Shown here: piece by piece, positions 38,499 through 50,391 of the stretch
Layout: every line of letters begins with the position of its first letter
Position numbering within the stretch: the first letter of the stretch is position 1
DNA from: a virus
Direction: 5' to 3' (one strand)
IMG/VR virus record: IMGVR_UViG_3300028800_001035
Span: 8,464 to 72,463 of that record
DNA: 64,000 nucleotides
Position numbers and translations under genes: made by a program
The notes under the pieces: generated by a model
The model's input: only the letters and a program-made list of their open reading frames with translations
Told to the model about the DNA's origin: nothing
The model's database searches: none

Positions 38499-38749
38499 CT
38501 TTGCCTCCTGATCTTGCCTTCAACCTTGCGCTCCCGCGCCGCCGCCTGCTTGTTGATCTCGGCGGTCGCCTCCCCGGCGATCCCGCCGAAGATAGCGCCC
38601 GCAACGAAGAGCGCAAACATCCGCTCCTTCTCGAGCTTTAGTATAAAATCCTTCGGACCAATCTCAGACGAGGTATATCCCGGCATCTCCGCCGCAAGGT
38701 AGTCCTCGAAGGCGTTCTCGAGCGATTCCTTGGAAACAGAATATGTCAC
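38495..38749 (-). CDS. hypothetical protein
   Basis: GTG start overlapping the polymerase stop. Confidence 0.55.
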   Translation of the reverse strand: MTYSVSKESLENAFEDYLAAEMPGYTSSEIGPKDFILKLEKERMFALFVAGAIFGGIAGEATAEINKQAAARERKVEGKIRRQR

Positions 38750-40713
38750 AGCGCCTCTCCCCACGTCCGCCCCGTCTTCGCCTCGACGAGGACCGGGACC
38801 TTGAGCTTGATCGCGTTCGGCATCACGTCCTCGTGAAGCTCGCGCCAAGCCTCGCGGCCCCGCGCCGTCCTCGGGATCGAGGAGTTGAGTTCGTCGTAGA
38901 TCGTAAGTAGGTACGGCCCCAAGGCGTCCGATGCGGTCAATCCGCGATCGACGCCGTCGACCATCGCCTTCTTGATTATATCCGCGTTCGACGATTGCAT
39001 CTTCTTGTTGAGCGCCGTGTAGGTGTGATAGCGGACGATGTTCGGCCCGTATTCCTTCTCGGCCTCGGCCCGGCGGAGCGGCGTCGCGGGATTGTCCCAG
39101 TTCTTCTTCGCGGGCTCCCAGAGCAGGAACCGCTGGCGTCGCCGGAGGATCGAGCGGACGAAGCCGTGCTTCTCCGCGTACTTCTGCGCCGCGTCGAACG
39201 TATCCTTGTTGAACGGTAGCTTCGCGTCGTAGAGGTCGATGAAGGCCTGCGCCTCTTGCTTCGAGATGCCTAGCATCTCGCCGATCTTGTTCGCGCGGGC
39301 CCCATAGGTCTTGCCGAAGTTTAGGTTCTTGACATATTTCCGCCGCTTCTTGTCCTCCGGCGGGATGCCAGCCATCTCGGCGCACATCTTGTGGTAGTCG
39401 GTCCTCGGGTCCTCGTTGTAGGTCCGCCGGACGGATTCCGCGCTCGGCCCGACCGCGAAGTGCGCGAGGAGCCGATACTCGATCTGCGAAAAGTCCGCCG
39501 AACCCCAATCCTCGCCGTCCTCCGGAAGGAAAAGCCCCCTGATCAGGGGGGCGACGTCGCGGAGATCTTCGTCGGCGCGGTCGTCGTCGCGGCTCGGGAT
39601 GTTGGCGAGGTTCGGGTTCGCGCTCGCCGTCCGCGCGATCGTACCGCCGCCGTCGTCCTTGAGTTGCTTCCACTCGCAATGTATCCGGCCCTTGACGTTC
39701 GAGCCGATGATCGTCCCGTCCATAAAGGTCGAGAGGAGGGTTTGAACCTTCCTCCCGTTGTAGATCGCGGAGCAGAGCGGGTCGCCGAGGCGGGCGGTTA
39801 GCCAACCCTTCGTAATCGAATCTTTCCCGGACTTCGGCGTCTTCGGGATTTGGTGCCCGTTCGCGCGAAGCGCGTCGGTGAAGCTCTCCGGGATTGAGAG
39901 CTCGGCCTTCGGGCTCGAGAGCCGCCGAACCTCGGCGAGGAGGCGGTCGCGGACGCGGACGAGGCCCTCGCGGGTCCGGATCGCGCCCGCGACGTCGACG
40001 CGAACGCCGCGCCGCGTCATATCGACCAAGGGGCGGACGAGGCGGCGCTCGATCTCCCAGACCGGGAGGAGCTCCTCGGCGGCGAGCTTCTCGCGCTGGA
40101 GCTTGATGATCCGGAGCGGGCGGTCGACGTCGGCGAGCGCATAGGGCCCGGCGTGCGAGGAGTGGAGCTTCCAGACGTTCGACTTGATCTGCGAATCCGT
40201 CTTCCAGCCGCGCGCGTTGGCGGCCTTGCGGAGAAGCTCCTCGTCCTTGCCTTGCCCGAGGTAGTCGCGGGCGAGCGCGTCGAGGTTGAACTCGTAGCGC
40301 CATTCGTCGAGCAACGGCTCCGCGATTTGAACGTCGTCGAACGCCTCGACGAGCGGGAACGTCACGCCGTTCTCCGCGAGCCAGTCGAGGTCGTAGGCGA
40401 GCTTCGCGCCGACGACGGTCCCCCGGAAGGCGTTAAGCTCCTCGCGGGCCCAAGCCCAGACGATCCGCTCGTCGAGGTTGCCGCCGCCTTCGTGGCGAAC
40501 GGGAAAGTACCAGCGGCGACCGTCTTCGGTCCCGACCGCGAGGCCGACGACGTAGTTGCCGGGGCGTCGGACGCCGGGGCCGAGCTCGGCGATTTGCGTA
40601 TCCTTGGTCTCGACGTCGACGGCGAGATCGCCGAAGCGCGGCAAGCTCGGAAGCTCAGCGGGCGGATGCCAGGCCGGGACGTCCTCGAGCTCGACGGCGG
40701 AGAGGAGGTTCAA
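38746..40713 (-). CDS. polA: family A DNA polymerase with 3'-5' exonuclease domain
   Basis: Exo DVET and YALAD; NPNLANIP; motif A DFSQIEYR; motif B KNLNFGKTYG; motif C TIYDE. Confidence 0.95.
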   Translation of the reverse strand: MNLLSAVELEDVPAWHPPAELPSLPRFGDLAVDVETKDTQIAELGPGVRRPGNYVVGLAVGTEDGRRWYFPVRHEGGGNLDERIVWAWAREELNAFRGTVVGAKLAYDLDWLAENGVTFPLVEAFDDVQIAEPLLDEWRYEFNLDALARDYLGQGKDEELLRKAANARGWKTDSQIKSNVWKLHSSHAGPYALADVDRPLRIIKLQREKLAAEELLPVWEIERRLVRPLVDMTRRGVRVDVAGAIRTREGLVRVRDRLLAEVRRLSSPKAELSIPESFTDALRANGHQIPKTPKSGKDSITKGWLTARLGDPLCSAIYNGRKVQTLLSTFMDGTIIGSNVKGRIHCEWKQLKDDGGGTIARTASANPNLANIPSRDDDRADEDLRDVAPLIRGLFLPEDGEDWGSADFSQIEYRLLAHFAVGPSAESVRRTYNEDPRTDYHKMCAEMAGIPPEDKKRRKYVKNLNFGKTYGARANKIGEMLGISKQEAQAFIDLYDAKLPFNKDTFDAAQKYAEKHGFVRSILRRRQRFLLWEPAKKNWDNPATPLRRAEAEKEYGPNIVRYHTYTALNKKMQSSNADIIKKAMVDGVDRGLTASDALGPYLLTIYDELNSSIPRTARGREAWRELHEDVMPNAIKLKVPVLVEAKTGRTWGEAL

Positions 40714-41459
40714 GCCGCGCCCTTCTCAATCAGCCATCCGGCGAAGTCGCCATAGCGGAACCACTCGACCGGATTGCCGGGTAGGTCTTCCGGGTCAAGC
40801 GGGCGCTGGACGCCCGCGAGCGAGAGCTCTTTGTCGATGATTTCCTTCGGCGAGACGCCCGTCGACAGCTTGCCCGCAAGGGTTAGGCGATTGAGGACCT
40901 GGCTCGCGTAGCCCGAAGCGAGCGCGGTCCGGTCGACGACGACGAGGGCACCGCCGGGAGCGAGGTTGCACCAAAGATCGTGAAGCAACTTCCGCCGCTT
41001 CTTGGGCGGAACGAACATCACGAAGAGGAAGGCGACGATCAGGTCGTTCTTGTCCTTGTCGGCCCACGGGACGTTTGTCGCGTCCTCGTTCCAGACGTTG
41101 ACGTATGGATGAAACGACACGAAGTCCCTCGAGCCTCGCCGCTTGATTGCTTCGATCATCGCCTCCGACTTCTCGACGCCGTATATTCGGGCGGACCGCG
41201 CCTTGAGGACCGACTGCAGGGCGTAGGCGACGTTGCCGGTCGACGCGCCGAGGTCGATGACGCCTCCGCCTTCCGAGACGTAGTGCCGCGCGATATGGAC
41301 GAGCCCCTTCGTAACGAAGTCGTACCACGGGAGCTGGCTCCGGACGTGCGCGTCGAAGTTCTCCGCGACGTCGGCGGTCTCGAACGACCACGCGCCCTCG
41401 GCGGGTCGCTCGGAGAGGCCGTCGCCGGAGAGCTTCTTGATCTTGGCCTTCTTGGTCAT
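40710..41459 (-). CDS. cmoA: CmoA-like carboxy-SAM synthase homolog
   Basis: WSF...VAENFD.HV..QLPWY, IDLGASTG, SEAM, MFVPP..R..LL..L...LAPGGALV, WFRYGDF match the CmoA pattern end to end. Confidence 0.8.
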   Translation of the reverse strand: MTKKAKIKKLSGDGLSERPAEGAWSFETADVAENFDAHVRSQLPWYDFVTKGLVHIARHYVSEGGGVIDLGASTGNVAYALQSVLKARSARIYGVEKSEAMIEAIKRRGSRDFVSFHPYVNVWNEDATNVPWADKDKNDLIVAFLFVMFVPPKKRRKLLHDLWCNLAPGGALVVVDRTALASGYASQVLNRLTLAGKLSTGVSPKEIIDKELSLAGVQRPLDPEDLPGNPVEWFRYGDFAGWLIEKGAA

Positions 41460-42553
41460 CTCTTCCTCGCCTCTCTCAAATCGCGGTACGGGATCAGGAC
41501 CTTGTCGCGAACCGCCGAAGCGACGGCGGCCATCATAACCGGCGGGACGGCGCGGCCCATCCGCTCCCATTTCTGCTGATAGGTCCCCGTCAACTTAAAG
41601 TCATCGGGGAAGGAGCAAAGCCGCCGGACCTCGGCGATCGAGAACTTCCGCTTCTCGGTCGGATGGCATACCCCGGCGATAGATTCTCCGCCGTGGCTCG
41701 CGAGGATCGTCGGCGCGGGCTTCGACCGGCTCGCGCGGATCAAGGAGAAGAAGCGGTCGGACTGCTGCCCCTCCGCGCACTTGTCCCACTCCGCGCCGAT
41801 CGCGTAGCGCGAGATGTCGATCCCGTCCATAACCCCGGGATGCTCCTCGGTCGCGCCGTCGGTCATCCACGGGCAGGCGTCGCCGACGTTGTAGCGATAG
41901 TCGAGCGGCTCCGGGTAGGCCGGATCGAGCCCGAGGTCCTCGCGGACGCCGACGAAGATAATCCGCATACGTTGCTGCGGGACGCCGAGCCATTGCGCGT
42001 CCAAGACGCGCGCCCCGACGCGGTAGCCGAGCGAGCGTAGGAGCTCGAGGACGTCGTTGAAGTACCCGACCGCAACCCCCCTGACCAATCCCGCGACGTT
42101 CTCGGCGACGAAGGTCTTCGGCTTGATCCCATCGACGAGCCGGGCGAACTCGAAGAAGAGGTCGTCGGTCCGCTGCTTGGAGTCGGAATATTTCCGGACG
42201 ACGCCCCAACCCTCCGACCGCTTCCCGGCGGTCGAGAAGGAGGCGCAGGGGGGACTGCCGTCGAAGAGGTCGAGGCCGCCGGGCTTGACGCCGCACGCGG
42301 TCAAGACGTCGGCGGCTTGGACGGTTCGTATGTCCCGCCCGTCGACGACGGTATAGGGGCGCGCGTTCGCCTCGTAGGTCGCCCGCGCCTCCGGGATGAA
42401 CTCGTTCGCGTAGCCGAGCTTGAAGCCCGCCATCCGGTAGCCGAGGCTCGAGCCCCCGCAACCGGAAAACGTACTCGCGGCGACGAAGCCGTTCGGCTCG
42501 AGCGCGTCGATCTCCGCCATCAGCGGGACGCGGTAGGGAGGCTTCTCGGTCAT
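41456..42553 (-). CDS. C5-cytosine DNA methyltransferase family enzyme, candidate carboxymethyltransferase
   Basis: Motif I FSGCGG, IV GSPPC, VI ENV, VIII QQRMR, IX RLCSFPDDF, X ERMGRAVPP (R in place of the usual N). Confidence 0.9.
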   Translation of the reverse strand: MTEKPPYRVPLMAEIDALEPNGFVAASTFSGCGGSSLGYRMAGFKLGYANEFIPEARATYEANARPYTVVDGRDIRTVQAADVLTACGVKPGGLDLFDGSPPCASFSTAGKRSEGWGVVRKYSDSKQRTDDLFFEFARLVDGIKPKTFVAENVAGLVRGVAVGYFNDVLELLRSLGYRVGARVLDAQWLGVPQQRMRIIFVGVREDLGLDPAYPEPLDYRYNVGDACPWMTDGATEEHPGVMDGIDISRYAIGAEWDKCAEGQQSDRFFSLIRASRSKPAPTILASHGGESIAGVCHPTEKRKFSIAEVRRLCSFPDDFKLTGTYQQKWERMGRAVPPVMMAAVASAVRDKVLIPYRDLREARKR

Positions 42554-42786
42554 TCTTCGGAGACCTTCGTGTCGTCGGCGTTGGGCTTGGGATTGCCGCG
42601 CCAGCCGTAGCCACATTTTGCACAGCAGAACTCGACCTCGATCCCGGCGGAGAAGTCCGGCCACGCCTCGGGCGGGACGGCGCTCTCGGGATCGTAGCCC
42701 GCGAGGTCGGAGACCTCCTTGACGTCGAACAAGGCGGAAGCGCCGATGCCGACGGGGCCGAGGGAGGAGGAGCGGAGTTTTGCCAT
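42550..42786 (-). CDS. small CxxC (zinc-ribbon-like) protein in the modification operon
   Basis: CAKCGYGW; overlaps both neighbours. Confidence 0.65.
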   Translation of the reverse strand: MAKLRSSSLGPVGIGASALFDVKEVSDLAGYDPESAVPPEAWPDFSAGIEVEFCCAKCGYGWRGNPKPNADDTKVSEE

Positions 42787-43589
42787 CAGTCTAATACTCC
42801 GGCGGCGATCTTGTTATAGGCGGCGATCGGCGACTTCGCGCCGGGGGCGTACTTCCGGAGGACGGCGTTGCCGACCGTCTCCGCTATCTTGGAATCGCCG
42901 AGCTGAAGGTTCGTATGCCGCGCGATCGAGAGGGGATCGAGCTCGGGGAACTCTTTCCGAATCGCCTCCTTCTGGCGCGGCTTGTTGAGATCGTCCCAGG
43001 TCGAGCGGGCGAAGAGGTCGAAGACATCATTGCTGAAATACGGCGAAAAGATCGAGACGTTGTTCGCGATCCCGATCGCGCGGAGCGTAGAAACTTGCGC
43101 CGCGTCCGGGTTCGCGAAGTAGTCCGCCCGGAATTTCTGAAACTTCGCTCTCGGATAGCGGTGATGGATCATCGCCTTCTTCGAGAGCGCAAAATGCCCG
43201 TCCGCCGCCGAGCCGACGACGAGCGTCGAAAGCCCGGCGCGCTTCAAGGTCGCAATCGTCGCGAGGAAGGGCCAGAGGCACTCGATCGCGGTCTTCCGCC
43301 GGGCCTCCCAGGTCTCGATAAGATAGCGGACGTCGGCGACGATCGTCTCCTCGGAAGTCGGTAGCGCGACCGGAAGGAACGGAAGGCCGAAGGCCTCCGC
43401 CAAGTGCCTAGCGGCTTTGAAGTCGCTCGACTCGTACCGTTCGAGGGAAAAGGAAACAACCGTAACGGTCTTCCCCGCGTCGATCGCGGCAAGGACGAGG
43501 GCCGAGGAGTCGATTCCGCCGGAAGTCGCGACGGCGATCTTCGCGTCCGGGATAGCCTTGATTTTGTCGGCGAGGATTTGGCGGAGCAT
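42786..43589 (-). CDS. asparagine-synthetase-like ATP-dependent amide ligase (no glutaminase domain)
   Basis: PP-loop ATSGGIDSS, GSAADGHF, SPYF, KEAIR; 267 aa. Confidence 0.8.
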   Translation of the reverse strand: MLRQILADKIKAIPDAKIAVATSGGIDSSALVLAAIDAGKTVTVVSFSLERYESSDFKAARHLAEAFGLPFLPVALPTSEETIVADVRYLIETWEARRKTAIECLWPFLATIATLKRAGLSTLVVGSAADGHFALSKKAMIHHRYPRAKFQKFRADYFANPDAAQVSTLRAIGIANNVSIFSPYFSNDVFDLFARSTWDDLNKPRQKEAIRKEFPELDPLSIARHTNLQLGDSKIAETVGNAVLRKYAPGAKSPIAAYNKIAAGVLD

Positions 43590-44572
43590 CAACTCCTCCC
43601 CGTCACGAGACCGCGAACGACCGGGCCGACGAAGGCGCTCGGCGCGGGATAGGCGGAGAGGTCCCAGGCGGTCGCGTTGGCTACGACGAGGTCGGCGAGG
43701 GCGACGTGCCACTTGCTCGCGTCGCGCCCTTCGGGGACCGCGCTCTCGACCTCCTCCTCGACGGTAGCCGCGCCGTTGACGCCGACGATCTTGTCGGCAC
43801 GTATCGCAATCTCGCCGTCGGCGAACCCGGCGACGCGTATAAATGCCCCTCTCCACTCCTCCGTAATTTCCGGAGGAGTTGGCGAGGTAGCAACCTTCTC
43901 GGCGAGGCGGTCGATCGTCCCGGGGACCTTGCCGTCGACCAAGGACGACGCGAGCCAGGCTCCGTCCTCCCAGAAGAAGCTCGCGCGGTTCGCGGAGAGG
44001 GAGATTCGATTCGGCGGCGTCGCCGCGCCGAGGACGGCCATCAAGGCGCGCTTGGGGATCAGGGCGTCCGCGCCGAAGTCGGGGATCGATGCGTAGGCGT
44101 AGATCGCGGCCTGCGGCCCGCAGGCGCTCGCGCGCCCGTGCTGAATTATCAAGGCGTTCATCCACGCCGGTTGGGGGTCCTCGGAGACGAAGCCCGAGAG
44201 GACCTCGAAGCGCGAGAGCGTCGCCGCGTCGAGCGGGTGCGCGTCGGCGTCGCTCGGCGTCGCCGGGACGAAGGTCTCGACGAACTTCGCGAGACGGACT
44301 TCGCCCTTGAAGCGCCCGGCGCGGATTCGGAGGACATCGCCTTCGACGTCGAACTCGGGATCGGAGGGCATCCTCGAGAGGACGGCCTCGAACTCGGACC
44401 CGGCGACGATCGCGTCGCCGAGCCACGGGAAGGGGGCGGAGGCGGTCATCGCGCGCGAGTTCGCGGCGATCCGCCCCCCTGACAAAACGAGCCAGGAGAA
44501 CGGGCCCGAGTCCTCGCGGTCGAGGGCCGCCTTGACGCGCGCGATCGCCGCGAGGGCTCGGGAGAGTTCCAT
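43589..44572 (-). CDS. DNA sliding-clamp (beta-like) protein
   Basis: 327 aa with three-fold helix/strand repetition; replication context; no diagnostic motif. Confidence 0.5.
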   Translation of the reverse strand: MELSRALAAIARVKAALDREDSGPFSWLVLSGGRIAANSRAMTASAPFPWLGDAIVAGSEFEAVLSRMPSDPEFDVEGDVLRIRAGRFKGEVRLAKFVETFVPATPSDADAHPLDAATLSRFEVLSGFVSEDPQPAWMNALIIQHGRASACGPQAAIYAYASIPDFGADALIPKRALMAVLGAATPPNRISLSANRASFFWEDGAWLASSLVDGKVPGTIDRLAEKVATSPTPPEITEEWRGAFIRVAGFADGEIAIRADKIVGVNGAATVEEEVESAVPEGRDASKWHVALADLVVANATAWDLSAYPAPSAFVGPVVRGLVTGRS

Positions 44573-48813: not shown

Positions 48814-49058
48814 CTCCCGACCTCGATCTTCCCCGGCTGCCAATAGGTCCGCGCGCCTATTCCCGGGCGGTCGAGAAACTCGCCGCGCTTGCCGGGCTTG
48901 TAGAGGTCGACGAGGACGAGGAAGCCGAACGTCTCGTCCGGGATCACGCGCTTGACCCGCCCCGCCCGACCGAAGCAAGGGTCGTCGCGGATGATCACGT
49001 CGCGCCCGACGAGGCGTTCGGCGGCGGCGAAGGTCGCCGCAAAGTCGGAAGCCATCAC
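48810..49058 (-). CDS. small SH3/KOW-like hypothetical protein
   Basis: Overlaps both neighbours. Confidence 0.5.
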   Translation of the reverse strand: MMASDFAATFAAAERLVGRDVIIRDDPCFGRAGRVKRVIPDETFGFLVLVDLYKPGKRGEFLDRPGIGARTYWQPGKIEVGR

Positions 49059-49546
49059 GGCGCGTCCGCCTTCTCAAGCTCGCCGGGGGCGCTCGCGAAG
49101 AAGTCGGCGGGAGAGTCGTAGCGGAGGCTCGCGACGATCTCGTCGAGCGCGACCTTGAGCGTCCCGCGCCGCTTCATCGCTCGACCGAACTGCCACTTCG
49201 AGTATCCCCGGTTCGTTCCGATAACGTAGATCGGCTTCCCGTGCGCGTCGGCGTAGCCCGCCTCGTAGAGCGCGCCCTTGAGGTCGTCGTCGCGCTCGGC
49301 GTAGACGAGGAAGACGTCGGCGCGACGTATGTCGGCCTTGTTATCCTCGAGCCAGTGCCGCGCGGGGCGGTTCATCTCGCTCGAAACGTCGGCGACGGCG
49401 GCCCAGCGGGAAGTCAGGTAGATGTTTGGGTAGGCGTCGCGGATCGCGAGGATCTTCTTCGCGTGGAGGAGCTTGCTCGCGGCATAGAGCGAGACGGACG
49501 CCCCCGGCGGTAGCGCCATACTCTGCGTCTTCATATCTCCGGTCAT
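49055..49546 (-). CDS. nucleoside 2-deoxyribosyltransferase / Rcl-like N-glycosidase
   Basis: LYAAS...DIRRADVFLV...GALYEAGYA.A.GKPIYVIG. Confidence 0.75.
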   Translation of the reverse strand: MTGDMKTQSMALPPGASVSLYAASKLLHAKKILAIRDAYPNIYLTSRWAAVADVSSEMNRPARHWLEDNKADIRRADVFLVYAERDDDLKGALYEAGYADAHGKPIYVIGTNRGYSKWQFGRAMKRRGTLKVALDEIVASLRYDSPADFFASAPGELEKADAP

Positions 49547-50391
49547 TGTTTTCCCTTTCCGAGGTTCTTGGTGAATAGTTCTTCGAGGCCCGCCGCGTAG
49601 GCGGCGATCAGGGTCGCTCCGGAGGAGAGCTTCCGCGACTCCGCCATTCCGAAGAGATATTTGATCCCGACGGTCTTGATCGCGCGGATCACGCCGATCG
49701 GGTCGGCGAGCCACGCCGGGTTGGCGGCGAGGACGGAGGTCGTCGCCGTCACGATCGGGGCGCGGAGGAGGCCCGGGTTGCCGCCGCCGGTATCGACGAC
49801 CGTCCGGAGCGCGAGTTCGAGGACCTCGGGCCCCCAGGACTTGAAGGCCTTCTCGAGCGCGCCGATCGCGAGGGTCTCGCCGGGGACCATCCCGGAGAGC
49901 GGCTTCGTCCCGCGCGGGATCGTCACGCCGACCTTCTCGAGGACGCGGCTCAAGCGGACGGCGACGGAATCCCCGGCCATGAGCCGCGCGTGCCAGATTT
50001 GCTGCTCGGCGATCGCGGTAACGGCCCCGTTGATCACGGAGAAGGCCTTCGCCTCGTCCGCCCGGTCCCCCCTGATAACGAGGCACGGGACCTTCTCGAT
50101 CCCGCCGTGGGTCCGCGCTGCGATCGCCCGGTGCTGCCCGTCGATTACGGCGTAGAGGCCGCCCTCGCGCGCGCAGACGACGAGCGGGGAGAAGAGGCTC
50201 CAGGAGAAGTTTTCGATCACCTGCCGGATGTTCTTCTCGCCCTTCGGCCCGATCGGTCGCTGATACTTCGGGTCGATCCGGAGGTCGCGGAGGTCGAGCC
50301 ACGCGAGCTCGCCGACGGCGTCGGTCGGAGCCGGGTTCGGGAAGGGCGGCGCGAAGGCGACCGCGTCGAGGGAGAGAAGTTCGTCGTTCAT
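49543..50391 (-). CDS. ParB/Srx-like N-terminal domain protein
   Basis: IDPKYQR and VIDGQHR motifs, EAKAF..IN. Confidence 0.75.
   Translation of the reverse strand: MNDELLSLDAVAFAPPFPNPAPTDAVGELAWLDLRDLRIDPKYQRPIGPKGEKNIRQVIENFSWSLFSPLVVCAREGGLYAVIDGQHRAIAARTHGGIEKVPCLVIRGDRADEAKAFSVINGAVTAIAEQQIWHARLMAGDSVAVRLSRVLEKVGVTIPRGTKPLSGMVPGETLAIGALEKAFKSWGPEVLELALRTVVDTGGGNPGLLRAPIVTATTSVLAANPAWLADPIGVIRAIKTVGIKYLFGMAESRKLSSGATLIAAYAAGLEELFTKNLGKGKQ

What the first reader, a model, noticed from the sequence alone, without database searches (positions are those of the whole stretch)
41540..41566. Motif X of the C5-MTase reads GRAVPP instead of GNAVPP
Seen: ERMGRAVPP, with the Arg codon at 41552-41554, while motifs I, IV, VI and VIII are canonical. 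Established: this position is normally Asn and faces the SAM methyl group; the engineered Asn-to-Lys change (N374K) in M.MpeI makes it a Cx-SAM-using carboxymethyltransferase. Inference: this is a natural version, with Arg pairing to the cofactor carboxylate. It is independent support for the operon hypothesis and points to a possible biotechnology enzyme.
Basis: partly seen in the sequence, partly recalled or inferred. Interest (0 to 1): 0.88.

Follow-up and report, generated by a model that had tools for sequence, protein, structure and literature searches.

The report
Phage cytosine carboxymethyltransferase (CmoX), already described
The arginine in this phage DNA methyltransferase is the hallmark of CmoX, an enzyme family shown in December 2025 to put carboxymethyl groups on phage DNA cytosines, so this copy is a further member and not a discovery.

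Summary
The reverse complement of 41540-41566 reads ERMGRAVPP, with Arg = CGC at 41554-41552.

Yang et al. (Nat Commun 2025, PMC12783734) described CmoX of Synechococcus phage S-B43, a Cx-SAM-dependent DNA cytosine C5-carboxymethyltransferase. Its Arg350 replaces M.HhaI Asn304 and holds the cofactor carboxylate (crystal 8YF3).

- The window protein's best solved match is 8YF3 (E 6.9e-64), with its Arg on Arg350 and its SPPC on S95-C98.
- It lies in an overlapping gene string: clamp, CmoY-like ligase, 78-aa protein, CmoX, CmoA-like, DNA polymerase.
- Among 124 distinct relatives, 112 of 114 Arg-type genes have a CmoA neighbour. None of 10 Asn-type genes does. The Asn types form one clade, so this is one evolutionary event.

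This scan already holds 51 notes on such systems in at least 45 genomes.

Two small additions are new here:
- The 78-aa gene is a stand-alone copy of a tail that ends the ParB-like proteins beside CmoX, and it is predicted to dock on CmoX.
- Motif IV Ala/Ser versus Gln covaries with motif X Arg versus Asn.

Verdict: new member of a known kind, low interest.

The parts
41456..42553 (-). CmoX-type DNA cytosine C5-carboxymethyltransferase gene (365 aa; ATG 42553-42551, TGA 41458-41456)
   Evidence: PF00145 at 3.2e-50. Best solved match is 8yf3_A at E 6.9e-64. The AF2 model has pLDDT 90.3, and its top Foldseek hit is 8yf3 at E 8.9e-31, TMt 0.85.
41552..41554 (-). Arg334 codon (CGC) of motif X. It is equivalent to SpCmoX Arg350 and sits at the M.HhaI Asn304 position
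   Evidence: In the alignment, ermgRavpp lies on ervgRmvpp; I counted the chain position as 350. The residue is invariant in alignment A3 of 45 sequences.
42245..42256 (-). Motif IV S100-P-P-C103 (catalytic Cys103), followed by Ala104 in place of the usual Gln
   Evidence: It aligns with S95-C98 of 8YF3. SPPC is invariant in A3. The residue after Cys is Ala or Ser in all 114 Arg-type relatives and Gln in all 10 Asn-type relatives.
40710..41459 (-). CmoA-like carboxy-SAM synthase gene (249 aa). Its ATG overlaps the CmoX stop codon (ATGA)
   Evidence: The only solved matches are CmoA structures (4gek at 1e-12, 1im8, 4iwn). The best NCBIfam model is TIGR00740 CmoA at 1.7e-17, below its cut-off. 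phrog_4752 matches at 1.3e-45. It is 43% identical to the CmoA of Moraxella phage Mcat8 and 22% to the validated SpCmoA.
42550..42786 (-). 78-aa protein with a single CxxC. It is a stand-alone copy of the C-terminal tail of the ParB_N proteins that lie beside CmoX in relatives
   Evidence: Its stop overlaps the CmoX start (ATGA) and its start overlaps the CmoY stop (TGATG). The tail alignment A4 has invariant C55 and C58. The tail HMM hits 71 of 80 and 70 of 73 related loci and 0 of 8 control loci. Complex prediction with CmoX scored 0.87 against a best control of 0.00.
42786..43589 (-). CmoY-like ATP-dependent amide ligase gene (267 aa). It has the asparagine-synthetase PP-loop domain only, with no glutaminase domain
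   Evidence: PF00733 at 6.2e-09. It is 31.6% identical to SpCmoY at 3e-32. It shares 24 invariant columns with SpCmoY in A5, including the SGGIDS PP-loop. phrog_26038 matches at 5e-43.
43589..44572 (-). DNA polymerase processivity factor (clamp-like) gene. Its stop overlaps the CmoY start (TGATG)
   Evidence: phrog_947 at 5.5e-22. The overlap is read.
38746..40713 (-). Family A DNA polymerase gene. Its TTG start abuts the CmoA stop
   Evidence: PF00476 at 2.6e-49.

Best explanation
The gene at 41456-42553 (minus strand) is a CmoX-type DNA cytosine C5-carboxymethyltransferase of an uncultivated, complete 72-kb, 65% G+C phage.

Proposed mechanism, taken from the S-B43 system and inferred here by homology:
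1. The downstream CmoA-like enzyme converts SAM plus host prephenate into carboxy-SAM. The phage has no chorismate mutase of its own.
2. CmoX flips a target cytosine out of duplex phage DNA. Cys103 attacks C6, and C5 takes the carboxymethyl group from Cx-SAM, whose carboxylate is held by Arg334. The product is 5-carboxymethylcytosine.
3. The upstream CmoY-like PP-loop ligase adenylates that carboxylate and joins an amine to it. The amine is glycine in S-B43 and unknown here.

The genes sit in one string of overlapping reading frames between the sliding clamp and the DNA polymerase, so the modification is probably made as the phage DNA is replicated. In S-B43 the modification blocks restriction enzymes, and that is the likely purpose here.

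What is shown here: sequence, motifs, homology, gene context and the covariation with CmoA. What is inferred: every enzymatic step.
For: Published system:
- Yang et al. (PMC12783734; I read the abstract, Results and Discussion in full and searched other sections for accessions) showed SpCmoA makes Cx-SAM.
- SpCmoX makes 5cxmC on dsDNA and only accepts Cx-SAM.
- R350 contacts the carboxymethyl group in crystal 8YF3.
- SpCmoY ligates glycine.

Window CmoX:
- Its best solved match is 8yf3_A at E 6.9e-64. The next best is M.HaeIII at 2.6e-18.
- The Arg aligns with R350, SPPC with S95-C98, and F29/E51/F52/D74 with the Cx-SAM contacts F25/E47/F48/D69.
- ENV and QxRxR are invariant.
- The AF2 model (pLDDT 90.3) has 8yf3 as top fold match, E 8.9e-31, TMt 0.85.

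Window CmoA-like and CmoY-like:
- CmoA-like matches only CmoA structures, and its best NCBIfam model is CmoA.
- CmoY-like is homologous to SpCmoY.

Gene coupling: ATGA and TGATG overlaps were read.

Correlation with CmoA:
- 153 related IMG/VR loci gave 124 distinct sequences. Of 114 Arg-type, 112 have a CmoA-like ORF in the flanks, and the 2 misses are cut by contig ends. Of 10 Asn-type, 0 have one, also by HMM.
- Eight distant phage loci with nine C5-MTases: 8 Asn, 1 Met, and 0 of 8 loci with CmoA.
Against: - No chemistry was or could be done, so the donor, the product and the target sequence are inferred.
- The CmoA-like protein scores far below NCBIfam's CmoA cut-off (63.9 against 193.3 bits).
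- It has Glu where E. coli CmoA has the carboxylate-binding Arg199 (role of Arg199 from passages of PMC3663124). The validated SpCmoA also has Glu there in the same kind of alignment, so this does not disqualify it, but alignment error is possible.
- The Arg/CmoA covariation is one evolutionary event: the 10 Asn-type sequences form a single clade with 100% SH-aLRT. The Fisher p of 4e-13 therefore overstates independence.
- Identity to SpCmoX is only 41%, and the target-recognition region between motifs VIII and IX did not align, so the GC specificity of SpCmoX cannot be transferred.
- M.MpeI could not be aligned directly.
Confidence: 0.87

Rival explanations
1. The cassette transfers an alkyl group other than carboxymethyl. 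The divergent CmoA-like enzyme would make a different SAM derivative, which the Arg-type transferase then uses.
For: The CmoA-like protein is only 22% identical to SpCmoA. It is below the NCBIfam CmoA cut-off and lacks Arg199 of E. coli CmoA.
Against: SpCmoA, which does make Cx-SAM, also lacks Arg199 in the equivalent alignment. The only solved and curated matches are CmoA. The transferase keeps the Arg that binds a carboxylate and all the named Cx-SAM contacts. The Lys before the Glu, and Y47, D70, G72 and R156, are invariant across the four phage CmoAs.
Confidence: 0.06
2. It is an ordinary SAM-dependent 5-methylcytosine methyltransferase that happens to have Arg in motif X, and the CmoA-like neighbour serves tRNA modification or SAM depletion.
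For: The fold and all catalytic motifs of C5-MTases are present. M.MedI wild type, an Asn-type enzyme, has weak carboxymethylation activity, so cofactor choice is not absolute (passages of PMC12015181).
Against: Wild-type SpCmoX accepts only Cx-SAM. Arg is tied to CmoA in 112 of 114 relatives, and Asn-type relatives lack CmoA (0 of 10). No CmoB-like partner was looked for, and none is needed in the published phage system.
Confidence: 0.03
3. The cassette is present but stops at 5cxmC, because the CmoY-like ligase acts on something else or is inactive.
For: 41 of the first 80 related loci have no CmoY at all. The closest relative, L005 (76% identical), carries an N6A/N4C-type methyltransferase in the CmoY slot, so CmoY is dispensable and swappable.
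Against: The PP-loop SGGIDS and 24 columns invariant with the validated SpCmoY are kept. The gene overlaps its neighbours within the cassette. In S-B43 no free 5cxmdC remained once CmoY was present.
Confidence: 0.15

Closest known systems
CmoA-CmoX-CmoY system of Synechococcus phage S-B43 (Yang et al., Nat Commun 2025;17:281, PMC12783734; SpCmoX crystal 8YF3; GenBank MN018232.1)
   Same: The three enzyme types are clustered in both. CmoX has SPPC plus the Arg at the R350 position and the same Cx-SAM contact residues. The CmoA homologue has Glu at the E. coli Arg199 position in both. The short CmoY lacks a glutaminase domain in both.
   Different: Identity is only 41% for CmoX, 22% for CmoA and about 31% for CmoY. 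The gene order is CmoY, tail, CmoX, CmoA here and CmoA, CmoY, CmoX in S-B43. The recognition region does not align, so the target site is unknown. The 78-aa tail protein has no counterpart in the 10.7 kb of S-B43 examined. The host is probably alphaproteobacterial and not a cyanobacterium: named homologues come from Brucella and Azospirillum genomes.
Streptomyces phage TurkishDelight gp121-gp125 (NC_073473.1) and Moraxella phage Mcat8 (KR093632.1): annotated but uncharacterised cassettes
   Same: These are the closest cultured-phage relatives of the window CmoX (59% and 45% identity in A2) and, for Mcat8, of the CmoA (43%). In both, the protein directly upstream of CmoX carries the CxxC tail.
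   Different: In both, the tail is the C-terminus of a longer protein (annotated as a ParB-like nuclease domain protein in TurkishDelight, hypothetical in Mcat8), not a stand-alone gene. TurkishDelight has the long ligase with a glutamine amidotransferase domain. Mcat8 has no ligase in the stretch seen.
Engineered M.MpeI N374K and M.MedI N377K carboxymethyltransferases
   Same: A positive side chain at the motif X Asn position lets a C5-MTase use carboxy-SAM (passages of PMC12015181; Discussion of PMC12783734).
   Different: These are engineered Lys variants of CG-specific Mycoplasma enzymes that still methylate with SAM. The window enzyme is a natural Arg form with an altered motif IV. No sequence or fold search here returned M.MpeI.
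Canonical C5-cytosine methyltransferases (M.HhaI, M.HaeIII, DNMT1; PF00145)
   Same: Fold, motif I, catalytic Pro-Cys, ENV and QxRxR are shared.
   Different: Motif X has Arg, not Asn. Motif IV reads SPPC-Ala, not G/F-PC-Gln.

Membership tests
CmoX (DNA cytosine C5-carboxymethyltransferase, Yang et al. 2025) | C5-cytosine methyltransferase fold | tested here: met
   PF00145 at 3.2e-50 over residues 27-348. The AF2 model has pLDDT 90.3, and its top fold match is 8yf3 with TMt 0.85.
CmoX (DNA cytosine C5-carboxymethyltransferase, Yang et al. 2025) | 'SPPC' form of motif IV (S95-P96-P97-C98 of SpCmoX) | tested here: met
   GSPPCASFS aligns with GSPPCSAFS of 8yf3 and is invariant in A3.
CmoX (DNA cytosine C5-carboxymethyltransferase, Yang et al. 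2025) | Arg at the position of SpCmoX R350 (M.HhaI N304), which binds the Cx-SAM carboxylate | tested here: met
   One search places ermgRavpp on ervgRmvpp, and I counted the chain residue as 350. The same residue lies on the Asn of M.HaeIII and DNMT1 in the same output.
CmoX (DNA cytosine C5-carboxymethyltransferase, Yang et al. 2025) | Cx-SAM adenine and ribose contacts (F25, E47, F48, D69 of SpCmoX) and the Glu and Arg that read cytosine N4 and O2 | tested here: met
   F29, E51, F52 and D74 align with these contacts. E151 (ENV), R195 and R197 are invariant.
CmoX (DNA cytosine C5-carboxymethyltransferase, Yang et al. 2025) | Phage-encoded CmoA in the neighbourhood | tested here: met
   The CmoA-like gene overlaps the CmoX stop codon.
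CmoX (DNA cytosine C5-carboxymethyltransferase, Yang et al. 2025) | Cx-SAM-dependent formation of 5cxmC on DNA | not testable with these tools
   This needs enzyme assays or LC-MS of phage DNA.
CmoA (carboxy-SAM synthase) | Class I SAM-binding fold with closest similarity to CmoA | tested here: inconclusive
   The only PDB matches are CmoA entries (1e-12 to 1e-10). TIGR00740 is the best NCBIfam model, but at 63.9 bits against a cut-off of 193.3. phrog_4752 matches at 1.3e-45 over its full length.
CmoA (carboxy-SAM synthase) | Arg199 (E. coli numbering) salt-bridging the cofactor carboxylate | tested here: not met
   Glu aligns with Arg199. The experimentally validated SpCmoA shows the same Glu, so this feature does not define the phage branch. 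The preceding Lys is invariant in four phage CmoAs.
CmoY (ATP-dependent 5cxmC amide ligase) | Asparagine-synthetase-type PP-loop domain homologous to SpCmoY | tested here: met
   PF00733 at 6.2e-09. SGGIDS is present. It is 31.6% identical to SpCmoY at 3e-32, with 24 invariant columns in A5.
CmoY (ATP-dependent 5cxmC amide ligase) | Residues that bind the glycine carboxylate (amine specificity) | not tested
Canonical SAM-dependent 5mC methyltransferase | Asn in motif X (GN[AS]V) and Gln after the catalytic Cys (PCQ) | tested here: not met
   The window reads GRAVPP and PPCA. Of 9 control phage MTases, 8 have Asn and 6 have PCQ.

The most novel reading that the evidence does not exclude
Two things here go beyond the 2025 paper.

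(1) The 78-aa CxxC protein between CmoY and CmoX may be a docking module for the transferase. The same ~45-aa tail (PPxxFxEVDExIETEHxCPKCGYxWSG) ends the ParB_N-domain proteins encoded beside CmoX in most relatives. It is predicted to add a strand to the edge strand 179-185 of CmoX. If so, the ParB-like proteins, whose role the paper calls unknown, would be tethered to the transferase by this tail, perhaps to load or spread it on DNA. This phage and its nearest relative would keep only the tail.

(2) Cofactor choice in this clade seems to need two coupled positions: motif X Arg with motif IV Cys-Ala/Ser for Cx-SAM, and motif X Asn with Cys-Gln for SAM. One nested clade looks like a natural return to methylation that also lost CmoA. 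This could explain why the single R350N mutant of SpCmoX was dead.
Probability: 0.4. Interest if true: 0.5.

Novelty: new member of a known kind. Interest (0 to 1): 0.27.

Why it matters
The main point does not change anything. Natural 5-carboxymethylcytosine, the Arg-for-Asn switch and the CmoA/CmoX/CmoY cassette were published with biochemistry and a crystal structure in December 2025, and the authors already counted 5,615 candidate CmoX sequences in IMG/VR, UniProtKB and MGnify. This window is an IMG/VR record and meets both of their filters, so it is probably in that set. I could not check this because the supplements are closed.

The copy still has some use:
- It is a high-GC, probably alphaproteobacterial example with a short ligase of unknown amine specificity and an unknown target site.
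- It isolates the CxxC tail as a separate small gene, which makes the proposed tail-CmoX contact easy to test.
- The Arg/Ala-Ser versus Asn/Gln pairing gives enzyme engineers a second position to change when converting methyltransferases to carboxymethyltransferases or back.

Tried and rejected
Direct alignment to M.MpeI. phmmer of the whole protein and of its last 71 residues at E up to 10 against all PDB sequences, and Foldseek of the model (top 50 rows seen), never returned M.MpeI. The N374 equivalence is therefore not tested here.

Arg199 of CmoA as a disqualifier. I rejected this after finding the same Glu in the validated SpCmoA.

ParB_N domain elsewhere in the phage. The only match is weak (15.5 bits, below the cut-off) at window 50032-50199(-), inside ORF 49055-50302. 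It has no tail, so I do not claim it works with CmoX.

Fusions of the tail to CmoX. None of the 120 best homologues has one (tail HMM).

Phage-encoded chorismate mutase (PF01817). None in the 72-kb genome.

Short palindromes in the window. GCGC and CGCG are not depleted (observed/expected 0.96 and 0.97), and only CATG (0.47) and CTAG (0.51) are low. This says nothing about the CmoX target.

Amine substrate of CmoY. Not resolvable: the glycine-binding residues are only in a supplementary figure, and supplements are closed.

Literature on the ParB tail. One search (ParB + cytosine methyltransferase + phage + carboxymethyl) found only the Yang paper, which says the ParBc role is unknown.
Full report
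**What is there.**
- The + strand 41540-41566 reverse-complements to GAG CGG ATG GGC CGC GCC GTC CCG CCG = ERMGRAVPP, with Arg = CGC at 41554-41552.
- It belongs to a 365-aa minus-strand ORF (ATG 42553, stop 41456-41458) that matches Pfam PF00145 at 3.2e-50 and NCBIfam TIGR00675 at 1.3e-43.
- The window is 64 kb of a 72,463-bp IMG/VR virus record rated 100% complete by CheckV. G+C is 64.7%.
- One correction: motif IV is not canonical. It reads GSPPCASFS, with Ser before PPC and Ala where most C5-methyltransferases have Gln.

**It is a published family.**
- My first literature search returned Yang et al., Nat Commun 2025;17:281 (PMC12783734). I read the abstract, all of Results and the Discussion.
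- In Synechococcus phage S-B43, a phage CmoA makes carboxy-SAM.
- A C5-methyltransferase homologue, CmoX, uses it to make 5-carboxymethylcytosine on duplex DNA at GC sites.
- An asparagine-synthetase-like ligase, CmoY, adds glycine.
- The 1.9-A crystal structure 8YF3 shows Arg350, which replaces Asn304 of M.HhaI, touching the carboxymethyl group.
- Wild-type enzyme accepts only Cx-SAM, and R350N accepts neither cofactor.
- The authors then collected 5,615 candidate CmoX sequences defined by 'SPPC' plus R350, and 4,257 CmoA, 2,251 ligase and 1,660 ParBc sequences on the same contigs.
- They say themselves that R350 mirrors the engineered M.MpeI N374K. Passages of PMC12015181 confirm the N374K story.

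**Membership.**
- The window protein's best solved match is 8yf3_A (E 6.9e-64); the next is M.HaeIII at 2.6e-18.
- Counting along the printed alignment, its Arg lies on residue 350 and its SPPC on 95-98. F, E-F and D lie on F25, E47-F48 and D69, the residues the paper names as Cx-SAM contacts.
- In the same output the Arg lies on the motif X Asn of M.HaeIII and DNMT1.
- An AlphaFold2 model built on 45 sequences (pLDDT 90.3, pTM 0.91) has 8yf3 as its top Foldseek match (E 8.9e-31, TMt 0.85).
- M.MpeI never appeared in any search, so that equivalence rests on the paper.

**The neighbours.**
- Downstream, the CmoA-like gene's ATG overlaps the CmoX stop (ATGA). This 249-aa class I methyltransferase has only CmoA structures as solved matches (4gek at 1e-12, 1im8, 4iwn). 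Its best NCBIfam model is CmoA, but well below the cut-off (63.9 against 193.3 bits).
- Glu aligns with Arg199 of E. coli CmoA, the residue that binds the cofactor carboxylate (passages of PMC3663124).
- I fetched the validated SpCmoA from MN018232.1 and found the same Glu at that position in the same kind of alignment. The Lys before it is invariant in four phage CmoAs. The missing Arg is therefore a trait of the phage branch and not a defect.
- Upstream lie a 78-aa ORF and a 267-aa PP-loop ligase without a glutaminase domain. The ligase matches PF00733, is 31.6% identical to SpCmoY (E 3e-32) and shares 24 invariant columns with it.
- Reading frames overlap all along the string: clamp/CmoY TGATG, CmoY/78-aa TGATG, 78-aa/CmoX ATGA, CmoX/CmoA ATGA. 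The polymerase start abuts the CmoA stop.
- The flanking genes are a processivity factor (phrog_947) and a family A polymerase.
- No chorismate mutase is present in the phage, so prephenate must come from the host.

**Does Arg go with CmoA?** Two scans of IMG/VR gave 153 related loci with 124 distinct transferase sequences.

| Transferase type | Distinct sequences | With CmoA-like ORF in the flanks | Residue after catalytic Cys |
|---|---|---|---|
| Arg-type | 114 | 112 | Ala (95) or Ser (19) |
| Asn-type | 10 | 0 | Gln (10) |

- The two Arg-type misses, L108 and one sequence seen in the two overlapping loci L031 and L119 of a single contig, have the gene at a contig end.
- The ten Asn-type loci have no CmoA or CmoY by BLAST or by HMM, although six of them have about 5-7 kb on both sides.
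- Every Asn-type sequence reads SPPCQ and GN[SA]VPP.
- Fisher's test gives 4e-13, but the Asn types form one clade (100% SH-aLRT). On a midpoint-rooted quick tree with many open forks, that clade is nested among Arg types. This is one event, not ten.
- Of the 120 best database homologues, 118 have Arg and 2 have Asn, and both Asn proteins have Gln after the Cys.
- As distant controls I fetched eight phage loci spread down the tblastn ranking, chosen because the match reached motif X or nearly so. Their nine C5-methyltransferases have Asn eight times and Met once. None of the eight loci has a CmoA-like ORF within 6 kb.
- In the whole phage collection, 690 records hold a homologue of the transferase, but only 55 hold a homologue of the CmoA-like protein.

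**What is different here.**
- The 78-aa ORF is homologous to the last ~45 residues of proteins lying beside CmoX in relatives. Five of the six such proteins that I scanned match ParB_N (two above Pfam's cut-off, three below). The motif is PPxxFxEVDExIETEHxCPKCGYxWSG, with both Cys invariant.
- An HMM of this tail hits 71 of the first 80 loci. Seven of the nine misses have CmoX at the contig start. It also hits 70 of the 73 later loci (all ten Asn-type ones included), TurkishDelight gp122 and the ORF upstream of Mcat8 CmoX.
- It hits nothing in the S-B43 stretch or in the eight control loci.
- In the window and in its closest relative L005 (76% identical), the tail is a separate small gene. One other short hit (L047) is cut by the contig start.
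- Complex prediction of CmoX with the 78-aa protein, both as alignments, returned 'the model supports binding; it does not show it'. The score was 0.87 and the best of 3 controls 0.00. That mark was reached by 58 of 80 solved complexes and 2 of 110 mismatched pairs, and these counts hold only roughly because my own alignments were used. The runs agree in at least 48% of contacts, and the partner's pLDDT is at least 56.
- The confident contacts pair tail residues 42-46 with CmoX strand 179-185. I know of no solved complex of this kind.
- This is a prediction only. It fits the tight linkage, and it would give the paper's unexplained ParBc proteins a physical link to the transferase.
- L005 also shows that the ligase slot is exchangeable. 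It holds an N6A/N4C-type methyltransferase there, and a further NPPY methyltransferase lies between CmoA and the polymerase.

**Verdict.**
- This scan has met the system repeatedly: 51 notes in at least 45 genomes.
- I file it as a new member of a known kind.
- Open points are the target sequence, the amine joined by the ligase, and the role of the tail.

Noticed in passing
window 42550-42786 (-); also L005:5768-6007, L001:4246-4941, L003:3508-4014: A 78-aa CxxC protein is a stand-alone copy of the ~45-aa C-terminal tail of the ParB_N proteins encoded beside CmoX in most relatives. It is predicted to dock on CmoX strand 179-185 (score 0.87 against a best control of 0.00).
   Followed up: yes
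L103, L110, L111, L114, L152-L156, L158 (IMG/VR loci): One clade of close relatives (50-61% identical to P0023, the Asn-type query that retrieved them) reads SPPCQ plus GN[SA]VPP and has no CmoA or CmoY nearby, yet keeps the ParB-tail partner. It looks like a natural return to plain methylation. It also shows that the residue after the catalytic Cys covaries with the motif X residue.
   Followed up: partly
L005:4625-5767 and L005:7406-8221: The closest relative (76% identical CmoX, same gene order) has an N6A/N4C-type DNA methyltransferase in the slot where the window has CmoY. It also has an extra NPPY (Dam-like) methyltransferase between CmoA and the polymerase. The ligase slot is therefore a swappable cassette.
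   Followed up: partly
L092:5920-6987 (Flavobacterium phage FPSV-S3, MK764444.1): This C5-methyltransferase has a CmoX-like motif IV (SPPCSSFS) but Met at the motif X position (IGMSVPP). No CmoA-like ORF lies within 6 kb. It is a third state of this position, and its cofactor preference is unknown.
   Followed up: no
Erwinia/Dickeya jumbo phages, e.g. NC_061441.1 29691-31784: The CmoX homologue matches in two pieces spread over about 2.1 kb, so it has a large insertion. The CmoA-like and asparagine-synthase-like genes lie about 17 kb away (near 12-14 kb) and are not adjacent to it.
   Followed up: no
window 49055-50302 (-): This ORF has a weak ParB_N match (15.5 bits, below the cut-off, at 50032-50199) and a weak nucleoside 2-deoxyribosyltransferase match in its C-terminal part. 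It has no CxxC tail.
   Followed up: partly
proteins P0053, P0105: Some long homologues (565-579 aa) begin with the motif IX-X end of a transferase (…FPDDF.LTG…GRAVPP…). In P0105 the start of a second transferase (…KPLYRVPSM…) follows. They may be tandem genes read as one, or permuted forms.
   Followed up: no
window, whole: CATG and CTAG are under-represented (observed/expected 0.47 and 0.51 by a second-order estimate), while GCGC and CGCG are not.
   Followed up: no
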